From Escherichia coli (lineage in GTDB: Bacteria > Pseudomonadota > Gammaproteobacteria > Enterobacterales > Enterobacteriaceae), in assembly GCF_003334315.1 (NCBI RefSeq), contig NZ_QOWR01000036.1: 46,318 nucleotides of DNA; one strand, written 5' to 3'. The notes below the pieces were generated by a model. The model did no database searches, was not told the origin of the DNA, and was given only the letters and a program-made list of their open reading frames with translations. Every line of letters starts with the position of its first letter. The stretch's first letter is position 1. Shown in pieces: positions 454 through 717 of the stretch. Both the position numbers and the translations under genes were made by a program.

Positions 454-717
454 GACAACCCGATATGGTATTCGATAATTCAGAGTTATGTTTTCATCAG
501 TTTCGATACGGCGAAAATCATCATCACTGTTATCTGTATTGTCTGGATAGTCAGAAGCATTACGGACTATGAACTGAAAACGGTGTTATTTACTCAGGCT
601 GATATTCAAAAGGAAATTCTTAAAGAGTTGCGGGCATTAAGAAACAGCAAGGAAATGCATAATGCGGATACAGCGGGAGATAACTTCAGGATAGACTTTG
701 ACAAAGTAGATTACTGA
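454..717 (+). pseudogene. 3' fragment of a gene truncated by IS1 (encodes ...IIITVICIVWIV...KVDY*)
   Basis: Frame is open from the first base after IS1 (454) to TGA at 715..717, 87 codons with no start codon; contains a hydrophobic helix-like segment. Confidence 0.4.

What the first reader, a model, noticed from the sequence alone, without database searches (positions are those of the whole stretch)
454..717. Gene 3' end truncated by the left IS1 insertion
The reading frame is open from the first base after IS1 to a stop at 715..717 (87 codons) but has no start codon, and the peptide contains a hydrophobic helix-like stretch (IIITVICIVWIV). This looks like the surviving C-terminal part of a membrane protein gene whose 5' portion lies beyond the IS1 or was lost.
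Basis: seen in the sequence. Interest (0 to 1): 0.35.

Follow-up and report, generated by a model that had tools for sequence, protein, structure and literature searches.

The report
IS1-truncated small membrane protein gene
This is the dead 3' three-quarters of a 119-codon E. coli membrane-protein gene whose start was cut off by an IS1 insertion: an ordinary event, though the uncharacterised gene cassette it belongs to is curious.

Summary
Window 454..717 is 87 sense codons plus a stop, with no start codon, and it begins at the first base after the right end of IS1 (ends at 453). It is not a chance frame. It is base-for-base identical to codons 33-119 of an intact 360-nt gene (RefSeq WP_063078926.1, 'hypothetical protein') found in about 2% of complete E. 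coli genomes. The homology starts exactly at 454.

The parent protein has 119 aa: two transmembrane helices and a long charged helical C-terminal tail. It evolves under purifying selection (dN/dS 0.1-0.3). It has no Pfam, NCBIfam, PHROG, PADLOC or PDB match. IS1 removed the promoter side, the start codon and helix 1. The insB stop codon lies in the same frame five codons upstream. The piece is therefore a pseudogene remnant.

I could not tell whether the 5' 96 nt lie beyond the IS1 or were deleted. The window ends inside IS1, and this junction is absent from every collection I searched.

By-product: the gene sits in an undescribed 3.4-kb cassette. Its cargo of envelope proteins varies, and a second part is constant. 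The constant part has conserved non-coding motifs, an SOS-box-like site and a homing-endonuclease-like DNA-binding protein. Conserved end repeats bound the cassette. It forms tandem arrays and occurs in several Enterobacterales genera and on plasmids.

The parts
1..453 (+). Last 453 nt of an IS1 element: the 3' part of insB (stop TAA at 436-438) and the right terminal inverted repeat, which ends at 453.
   Evidence: Exact match to the IS1 end. The insB-type ORF 61..438 is listed. This part matches IS1 copies in 4963 of 5426 E. coli genomes. It is identical to the inverted arm at 45866..46318.
454..717 (+). Pseudogene fragment: codons 33-119 plus the stop of the 119-aa two-pass membrane protein gene (WP_063078926.1 / WP_096178407.1 family). 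It lacks the start codon, the ribosome-binding site and transmembrane helix 1.
   Evidence: Purifying selection on the parent gene is shown.
730..763 (+). Intrinsic terminator of the cargo operon, 12 nt after the stop codon. It is a 10-bp stem with a TTCT loop and a T-run.
   Evidence: The stem is kept through changes on both sides in the plasmid, Rouxiella, Yersinia and Serratia copies (alignments).
778..813 (.). Invariant 33-36-nt non-coding motif CAGCTCAAGCCGCATGGCTCTCCTGCGGAGGGCTTA, containing a CCGCA/TGCGG hairpin. It marks the first part of the constant half of the cassette.
   Evidence: Nearly identical in 6 loci whose proteins are only 34-75% identical. In E. coli it is found only together with the cassette, in 91 genomes.
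947..1020 (.). Two further conserved non-coding islands: GGCGATGGTAGCACAGATATTTAAATCTGTAAA (947-979) and the hairpin CACCC-TATC-GGGTG (1007-1020).
   Evidence: There is no conserved ORF here.
1173..1192 (.). SOS-box-like palindrome TGCTGTATAAATAAACAGTC (CTGT-N8-ACAG). It matches 16 of 20 positions of the LexA consensus TACTGTATATATATACAGTA (the consensus is from my own knowledge).
   Evidence: It is the only CTGT-N8-ACAG in the window. CTG-N10-CAG is kept at the same place in 6 of 7 loci.
1532..2479 (+). Gene for a 315-aa protein (WP_001138411.1 family). It has homing-endonuclease-like AP2/NUMOD-type DNA-binding modules and no detectable nuclease domain. It is the constant gene of the cassette.
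   Evidence: PHROG 'HNH endonuclease' families hit residues 31-252 only. There is no Pfam hit. The AF2 model has pLDDT 82. Foldseek hits are AP2-domain and I-HmuI-like NUMOD-like proteins.
2657..2712 (.). Right-hand copy of the cassette end repeat: CATTTAACAT-GTTCAAC-ACATTATGCGCAC followed by about 26 nt. The left-hand copy lies beyond the IS1.
2764..4086 (-). hipA, the chromosomal gene flanking the cassette on the right. hipB and the ECSE_1600-type autotransporter follow.
45866..46318 (-). Second IS1 arm. It is inverted, identical to the first, and also has its right inverted repeat facing inward.

Best explanation
Shown: window 454..717 is the 3' 264 nt (codons 33-119 plus the stop) of a 360-nt gene for a 119-aa inner-membrane protein. 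An IS1 element abuts it with its right inverted repeat. The junction lies between codon 32 (ACT) and codon 33 (GAC).

The interruption separates the fragment from its promoter, ribosome-binding site and ATG, from transmembrane helix 1 (residues about 13-31), and from the co-transcribed upstream gene (311 aa, signal peptide).

The remnant has no start codon before GTG 583. It is preceded, five codons upstream and in the same frame, by the insB stop codon, so it cannot be made as a fusion either.

Inferred: it is a non-functional pseudogene remnant. Its own terminator (730-763) and everything downstream (conserved non-coding motifs, SOS-box-like site, 315-aa gene) are untouched.

The parent protein is modelled as N-terminus in the cytoplasm, TM1, a short periplasmic helix, then TM2 continuing into a roughly 45-residue charged cytoplasmic helix. 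It is the last gene of a small operon of exported proteins carried as 'cargo' in a 3.4-kb accessory cassette inserted next to hipA.

My best guess for its function is a membrane partner (anchor, assembly or immunity-type factor) of the exported proteins encoded upstream. This is inference only, at about 0.3.
For: Junction and identity:
- Exact IS1 end at 453.
- Base-for-base identity to the intact gene from 454 onward, with none before.
- Full-length parents in E. coli B27 and CP53, E. asburiae and plasmids.

Frame:
- insB stop at 436-438 in frame, and no start until 583.

The parent is a real gene:
- dN/dS of 0.11-0.31 between copies.
- 9 clusters at 50% identity in 1.84 billion proteins, all about 116-123 aa.
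- Conserved YE..F.QAD..K..L motif.

Topology:
- Hydropathy.
- AF2 model with helices 3-31, 35-44 and 49-108, pLDDT 74.

Operon and synteny:
- 20-nt gap to the upstream gene and a terminator directly after the stop.
- Synteny kept in 6 genera.

Window context:
- The rest of the window is colinear with E. coli CP53 at 99.8-100%.
Against: The other side of the IS1 is not in the window. No target-site duplication can therefore be checked, and a simple insertion cannot be told apart from an IS1-mediated deletion or inversion. The exact junction was found in no public collection. The predicted left-junction peptide is not on record. There are no expression data. A 44-aa product from GTG 583 cannot be strictly excluded. 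The parent's function is unknown: no Pfam, NCBIfam, PHROG, PADLOC or PDB match.
Confidence: 0.92

Rival explanations
1. The truncation did not come from a simple IS1 insertion. Either an IS1-mediated adjacent deletion removed the 5' 96 nt and the upstream gene, or homologous recombination between the two inverted IS1 copies inverted the 45.4-kb segment. In the second case the 5' part would now lie next to the other IS1.
For: Two identical IS1 arms in inverted orientation bound the window. The 5' 96 nt are nowhere in the 46 kb. The sequences flanking the two IS1 inner ends differ (GACAACCCG versus GGGAGTATG read outward), so no duplication is visible. Rearrangement is common at this locus: a fusion allele P0004, internal deletions P0008 and L010, and an IS3-family insertion in strain 14EC007.
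Against: Nothing in the window requires it. The inner 45.4 kb is colinear with strain CP53. A window that ends at the same IS1 coordinate on both sides is what a short-read contig broken at a repeat looks like, whatever lies outside.
Confidence: 0.3
2. The open frame is a chance ORF in non-coding DNA next to IS1.
For: There is no start codon. No Pfam or other family match exists.
Against: It is 100% identical to the 3' part of an annotated, conserved gene. Homologues at 34-75% identity keep the length, the hydrophobic pattern and the C-terminal motif. dN/dS is 0.1-0.3.
Confidence: 0.01
3. The remnant is still expressed as a shortened protein. This could be the 44-aa soluble tail from GTG 583, or a longer product driven by transcription reading out of IS1, and it might retain some activity.
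For: The frame is intact to the natural stop and the terminator is present. insB transcription runs in the same direction. A promoter-like site (CCGACA-16-GATAAT) spans the junction. The 44-aa ORF was called as a gene in one other assembly that has an internal deletion.
Against: No Shine-Dalgarno-like sequence precedes GTG 583 (sequence read). The product would lack both transmembrane helices. The promoter-like count is below the shuffle expectation (2 found against 3.2 expected). insB ends in a stop in the same frame, so no fusion is possible.
Confidence: 0.04

Closest known systems
IS1 insertional gene disruption (classical polar IS1 insertions; established knowledge)
   Same: A precise junction at the terminal inverted repeat of IS1 inside a coding sequence. 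The 5' part of the gene is uncoupled and the remnant is left without a start codon.
   Different: Only one side is visible. The 8-9-bp target duplication and the full 768-bp element cannot be confirmed. This particular junction is not in 5426 complete E. coli genomes, PLSDB, IMG/VR, the GTDB representatives or the JGI metagenomes.
RefSeq 'hypothetical protein' WP_063078926.1 / WP_096178407.1 (119 aa), an uncharacterised family of Enterobacterales
   Same: The fragment equals residues 33-119 at 100% identity. The downstream terminator, non-coding motifs and 315-aa gene are the same.
   Different: The window copy lacks residues 1-32 and the upstream operon partner.
Small phage or plasmid two-pass membrane proteins such as class II holins or superinfection-exclusion proteins
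   Same: About 120 aa, two transmembrane helices, and a long, highly charged cytoplasmic C-terminal tail (9 K/R and 11 D/E in 54 residues).
   Different: No sequence or profile match to any holin or PHROG family. No endolysin next to it. No copy in 50,697 phage records. This is a resemblance of shape only.
Free-standing homing endonuclease genes with AP2 / NUMOD-type DNA-binding modules (I-HmuI-like). This applies to the neighbouring 315-aa gene.
   Same: PHROG 'HNH endonuclease' families match residues 31-252. The closest folds are AP2-domain and I-HmuI-like NUMOD-like proteins and endonuclease inserts in thymidylate synthase genes.
Integron gene cassettes and solo-LTR-type scars, as structural analogies for the cassette
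   Same: Variable cargo is joined to a conserved recombination-site-like repeat. Tandem arrays occur. Most E. coli genomes carry a single 'empty' copy of the repeat.
   Different: No integrase or any known recombinase is present. The repeats are direct and about 30-55 nt long, not attC hairpins. The mechanism is untested.

Membership tests
IS1 insertion sequence | Terminal inverted repeat (right end ...AAGTTGGAGTCATTACC) at the junction | tested here: met
   0 mismatches over 54 nt at 400..453, and again at 45866..45919.
IS1 insertion sequence | insB reading frame ending just inside the right inverted repeat | tested here: met
   ORF 61..438. The region matches IS1 copies in 4963 E. coli genomes at up to at least 99%. 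RefSeq annotates an IS1A family transposase in E. coli 14EC007.
IS1 insertion sequence | 8-9-bp target-site duplication flanking a full 768-bp element | not testable with these tools
   The window starts inside IS1. The left junction was not found in any collection.
119-aa membrane protein family (WP_063078926.1) | Sequence identity to full-length members across the fragment | tested here: met
   100% to B27 residues 33-119.
119-aa membrane protein family (WP_063078926.1) | Complete ORF with an ATG, an N-terminal MNSSFLTK segment and transmembrane helix 1 | tested here: not met
   The first 96 nt are absent from the window. This is a fragment of a member, not an intact member.
119-aa membrane protein family (WP_063078926.1) | Conserved context: terminator, invariant non-coding motif, about 800-nt spacer, 310-315-aa gene downstream | tested here: met
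Holins (considered and not adopted) | Profile match to a holin family, or adjacency to an endolysin in a lysis cassette | tested here: not met
   No Pfam or PHROG hit. The neighbours have no lysin domain. No phage copy exists.
HNH homing endonucleases (the 315-aa neighbour) | HNH (beta-beta-alpha-metal) catalytic domain | tested here: not met
HNH homing endonucleases (the 315-aa neighbour) | AP2 / NUMOD-type DNA-binding modules | tested here: met
   Foldseek AFDB50 hits to AP2-domain and I-HmuI-like NUMOD-like proteins, E from 1e-12 to 1e-5.
LexA (SOS) operator | CTGT-N8-ACAG palindrome close to the 20-nt consensus | tested here: met
   1175..1190 is the single match in 46 kb, against 0.44 expected. 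It is conserved in 6 of 7 divergent loci.
LexA (SOS) operator | LexA binding and DNA-damage induction | not testable with these tools
   An experiment is needed.

The most novel reading that the evidence does not exclude
The truncated gene is cargo of an undescribed small mobile or self-amplifying cassette of Enterobacterales, about 3.3-3.4 kb long.

- Its left end is ATTTAACAT-AATAT-ACATTATGCGCACC. Each right or internal end is CACTTCGTGCAGyCATTTAACAT-GTTCAAC-ACATTATGCGCACC.
- It has a variable module of exported or membrane proteins. Variants seen are 311 aa + 119 aa; 134 + 111 + 119 aa; YfjT-like + 120 aa; and a TolA-C-terminal-domain protein.
- It has a constant module with invariant non-coding motifs, an SOS-box-like site, and a nuclease-less homing-endonuclease-like DNA-binding protein.
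- It occupies a site that nearly all E. coli carry empty, next to hipA.
- It forms tandem arrays in E. coli and Serratia, and also sits on large conjugative plasmids.

The 315-aa protein and the end repeats could form a new site-specific insertion or amplification system that delivers envelope proteins, possibly ones that exclude phages or colicins.
Probability: 0.3. Interest if true: 0.55.

Novelty: already known. Interest (0 to 1): 0.15.

Why it matters
On its own it matters little. It is one more IS1-inactivated accessory gene in an E. coli strain, useful mainly so that annotation labels 454..717 as a pseudogene fragment and not as a gene.

The follow-up adds some value. It shows that the disrupted gene belongs to a compact, recurrent and so far unannotated cassette. 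That cassette has defined ends, swappable envelope-protein cargo, a conserved SOS-box-like site and a domesticated homing-endonuclease-like protein.

If the cassette proves to be a site-specific mobile unit, it would be a new small vehicle for accessory envelope functions in Enterobacterales. It would also explain a variable spot next to hipBA.

Tried and rejected
Searches for the other side of the IS1 (all negative):
- The IS1/gene junction in 5426 complete E. coli genomes.
- PLSDB plasmids.
- IMG/VR.
- GTDB species representatives, for both the left-junction and right-junction patterns.
- JGI metagenomes.
- Exact-product look-ups of the predicted left-junction peptide MNSSFLTK...GTDNPGDAANLLI, in two allelic forms.
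- The 5' 96 nt elsewhere in the window.

Family assignment of the 119-aa protein (nothing found):
- NCBIfam, PHROGs, PADLOC and Pfam.
- PDB by profile.
- Foldseek of the AF2 model against the PDB, best E = 4.
- tblastn against phages.

Other leads:
- Rfam on 1..4500 gave only a sub-threshold RsmY hit (24 bits against a gathering score of 57). I judged it chance, because it overlies the gene's 3' end and the terminator.
- The hidden-ORF idea for the 814-nt spacer was rejected. The 159-aa open frame in E. coli has stop codons in the homologous frame of the plasmid, Yersinia and Serratia copies.
- The structured-RNA idea for the stretch from the SOS box to the start codon has no support. RNAalifold gave -6.5 kcal/mol and almost no covariation.
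- Literature searches by protein accession and by locus names found nothing relevant.
- A match boundary at window position 771 in some genomes first looked like a recombination point. It turned out to sit about 90 nt downstream of an IS3-family insertion, in a cassette variant whose cargo differs.

Full report
**1. The observation**

The window starts inside an IS1 element. The last 54 nt of IS1, which include the right terminal inverted repeat, match 400..453 with no mismatch. The same sequence occurs inverted at 45866..45919. The two IS1 arms (1..453 and 45866..46318) are identical at all 453 positions, and both face inward with their right ends.

From the first base after IS1 (454), the frame is open for 87 codons, to TGA at 715-717 and then TAG. 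No ATG, GTG or TTG lies in that frame before GTG 583. The frame is the same as that of insB, whose TAA stop at 436-438 lies five codons upstream. This excludes an InsB fusion.

**2. It is not a chance frame**

A search with 454..1000 found the sequence in 97 of 5426 complete E. coli genomes, 36 of them at 99% identity or better.

In strain B27 the match lies in an annotated 360-nt gene, WP_063078926.1. In the alignment, every base from 454 through the stop codon and beyond is identical to B27. Upstream of 454 the window is IS1, whereas B27 continues with 96 nt that encode MNSSFLTKYLSKLTLTINIILTVMTWFYLIGT. The window therefore keeps codons 33-119. The break falls between ACT (T32) and GAC (D33).

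The parent is a real gene:
- Homologues of 116-123 aa at 34-75% identity keep the hydrophobic pattern and a C-terminal YE..F.QAD..K..L motif.
- dN/dS between copies is 0.11-0.31 where dS is not saturated.
- The family is tiny, with 9 clusters at 50% identity among 1.84 billion representatives and 11 clusters at 90% identity.
- It has no Pfam, NCBIfam, PHROG, PADLOC or PDB relative.

**3. What the parent protein looks like**

Hydropathy shows two membrane segments, at about residues 13-31 and 45-67, with lysines before the first and an arginine after the second. An AlphaFold model built from 7 sequences (pLDDT 74) has helices at 3-31, 35-44 and 49-108.

The likely topology is N-in and C-in, with a short periplasmic helix and a cytoplasmic helical tail of about 45 residues (9 K/R and 11 D/E). 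A fold search gave nothing specific (best E = 4).

IS1 removed the start codon and helix 1.

**4. Where the window comes from, and the other side of IS1**

The inner 45.4 kb (454..45865) is colinear with E. coli chromosomes and 99.8-100% identical to strain CP53. CP53 has the gene intact and has no IS1 at either site. The right IS1 lies 62 nt beyond tfaQ, at the edge of the Qin prophage remnant.

Both window ends stop at the same IS1 coordinate. That is the signature of an assembly contig broken at a repeat, so what lies left of the IS1 cannot be read here.

The 5' 96 nt are not elsewhere in the window. The junction is absent from complete E. coli genomes, PLSDB, IMG/VR, the GTDB representatives and the JGI metagenomes. 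The peptide expected from a simple insertion is not on record.

So 'simple insertion' versus 'IS1-mediated deletion or inversion' stays open. I rate them about 0.6 and 0.3.

**5. Context of the gene**

In CP53 the order is: yneL-like pseudogene, a 311-aa gene (with a signal peptide), a 20-nt gap, the 119-aa gene, an 814-nt spacer, a 315-aa gene, then hipA.

The 119-aa gene is followed 12 nt later by an intrinsic terminator (730-763). Its stem is maintained by paired changes in other genera. The gene is therefore the last one of a small operon. IS1 cut this operon but left the terminator and everything downstream intact.

**6. The cassette (by-product, partly followed up)**

*Boundaries and the empty site.* Compared with K-12, CP53 carries 3445 extra bases bounded by a direct repeat.
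- K-12 has a single copy of that repeat, between yneL and hipA.
- 4947 of 5426 E. coli genomes carry this solo site, with a median of one place per genome.
- Across E. coli, E. asburiae, Rouxiella, Yersinia, Serratia and Buttiauxella, the left end is always ATTTAACAT-AATAT-ACATTATGCGCACC, and the DNA upstream of it is not conserved.
- Each internal or right copy is CACTTCGTGCAGyCATTTAACAT-GTTCAAC-ACATTATGCGCACC.
- The window's right copy is at 2657-2712.

*Tandem arrays.* Arrays occur in E. coli B27 (period 3440 nt) and in Serratia liquefaciens (at least 3 units, period 3251 nt). One E. coli genome shows up to 6 places.

*Plasmid copies.* The cassette is also on 190-290-kb plasmids of Citrobacter, Klebsiella and Enterobacter, next to parM/stbA.

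*Variable cargo.* The cargo differs between copies. Variants seen are 311 aa + 119 aa; 134 + 111 + 119 aa; YfjT-like 155 aa + 120 aa; and, in E. coli 14EC007, a 361-aa protein annotated as containing a TolA C-terminal domain, with no 119-aa gene. All cargo proteins have signal peptides or transmembrane helices.

*Constant part.* This part runs from the terminator onward. It contains:
- an invariant 33-36-nt motif (778-813);
- two further conserved islands (947-979 and 1007-1020);
- an SOS-box-like CTGT-N8-ACAG (1175-1190), which is the only one in the window and is conserved in 6 of 7 loci;
- a conserved stem plus T-run just before the 315-aa gene (1457-1491).

The spacer holds no conserved ORF. 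It has no Rfam family and no convincing consensus RNA structure.

*The 315-aa protein.* It matches PHROG 'HNH endonuclease' families only over their non-catalytic part and has no Pfam domain. Its model (pLDDT 82) resembles AP2-domain and I-HmuI-like NUMOD-like DNA-binding proteins. No nuclease fold is detectable.

**7. Other broken alleles**

The same small gene is damaged independently elsewhere:
- a fusion to the first 67 residues of the upstream protein (P0004);
- a 35-residue internal deletion (P0008);
- an internal deletion in assembly GCA_050027275.1 (L010).

In the 14EC007 variant of the cassette, an IS3-family element interrupts the 3' end of the cargo gene. The cargo part of this cassette seems to decay easily.

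**8. Verdict**

It is an IS1-truncated pseudogene remnant of a 119-aa two-pass membrane protein gene. As a phenomenon it is ordinary and already known.

The function of the parent gene is unknown. My best guess, with low confidence, is a membrane partner of the co-transcribed exported proteins.

The cassette it belongs to appears undescribed in the libraries and literature I could search. It is the only part with real novelty potential.

Noticed in passing
window 2657-2712; L008 (CP53), L017 (K-12), L012, L018, L020, L022: The 3.4-kb cassette that holds the truncated gene is bounded by conserved end repeats. The left end is ATTTAACAT-AATAT-ACATTATGCGCACC. Right and internal copies are CACTTCGTGCAGyCATTTAACAT-GTTCAAC-ACATTATGCGCACC. 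These are the same in six genera at unrelated chromosomal sites. K-12 and 4947 of 5426 E. coli genomes carry a single 'empty' copy next to hipA.
   Followed up: partly
L001 (E. coli B27) 191-8311; L020/L021 (Serratia liquefaciens): The cassette forms head-to-tail tandem arrays, with a period of 3440 nt in E. coli and 3251 nt in Serratia. One E. coli genome shows up to 6 places.
   Followed up: partly
window 778-813, 947-979, 1007-1020, 1457-1491: Non-coding islands in the 814-nt spacer are nearly invariant among loci whose proteins are only 34-75% identical. They have no conserved ORF, no Rfam family and no convincing consensus fold. Their role is unexplained.
   Followed up: partly
window 1173-1192: The SOS-box-like palindrome TGCTGTATAAATAAACAGTC matches 16 of 20 positions of the LexA consensus. 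It lies about 340 nt upstream of the 315-aa gene and is conserved in 6 of 7 loci from different genera.
   Followed up: partly
window 1532-2479: A 315-aa protein is annotated only as hypothetical. It matches PHROG 'HNH endonuclease' families and has AP2 / I-HmuI NUMOD-like folds, but no detectable catalytic domain. It may be a domesticated homing-endonuclease DNA-binding protein.
   Followed up: partly
L024 (E. coli 14EC007) 2370-6960; L015 (Citrobacter plasmid) 6248-9075; L014: The cargo of the cassette is swapped between copies: 311 aa + 119 aa; 134 + 111 + 119 aa; YfjT-like + 120 aa; or a 361-aa protein with a signal peptide annotated as containing a TolA C-terminal domain. All are envelope proteins. 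In 14EC007 an IS3-family element interrupts the cargo.
   Followed up: partly
window 1-453 and 45866-46318: Two identical, inverted IS1 arms of exactly 453 nt, each with its right end facing inward, bound 45.4 kb of otherwise ordinary chromosome (hipBA, autotransporter, lsr operon ... ydfJ). That segment is colinear with strain CP53, which has no IS1 at either site. It looks like a contig broken inside IS1. A composite-transposon-like or invertible segment cannot be excluded.
   Followed up: partly
P0004, P0008, L010 2015-2149: The same 119-aa gene is damaged independently in other assemblies: an in-frame fusion to the first 67 residues of the upstream protein, a 35-residue internal deletion, and an internal deletion that leaves a 44-aa ORF.
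   Followed up: no
window 2679 onward; L008, L012, L020 end repeats: A short ORF starts at the ATG inside the end repeat (ACATTATGCGC). It reads MRTNINQGRIQ* in E. coli internal and left copies, MRTKMAVRKI* in Serratia and MRTKVSLRGF* in Rouxiella. It could be a leader peptide ahead of the cargo operon, or merely a product of DNA-level conservation.
   Followed up: no
window 639-753: There is a sub-threshold Rfam hit to RsmY (24.4 bits against a gathering score of 57, E = 0.005). It overlies the 3' end of the fragment and its terminator. I judged it a chance match.
   Followed up: no
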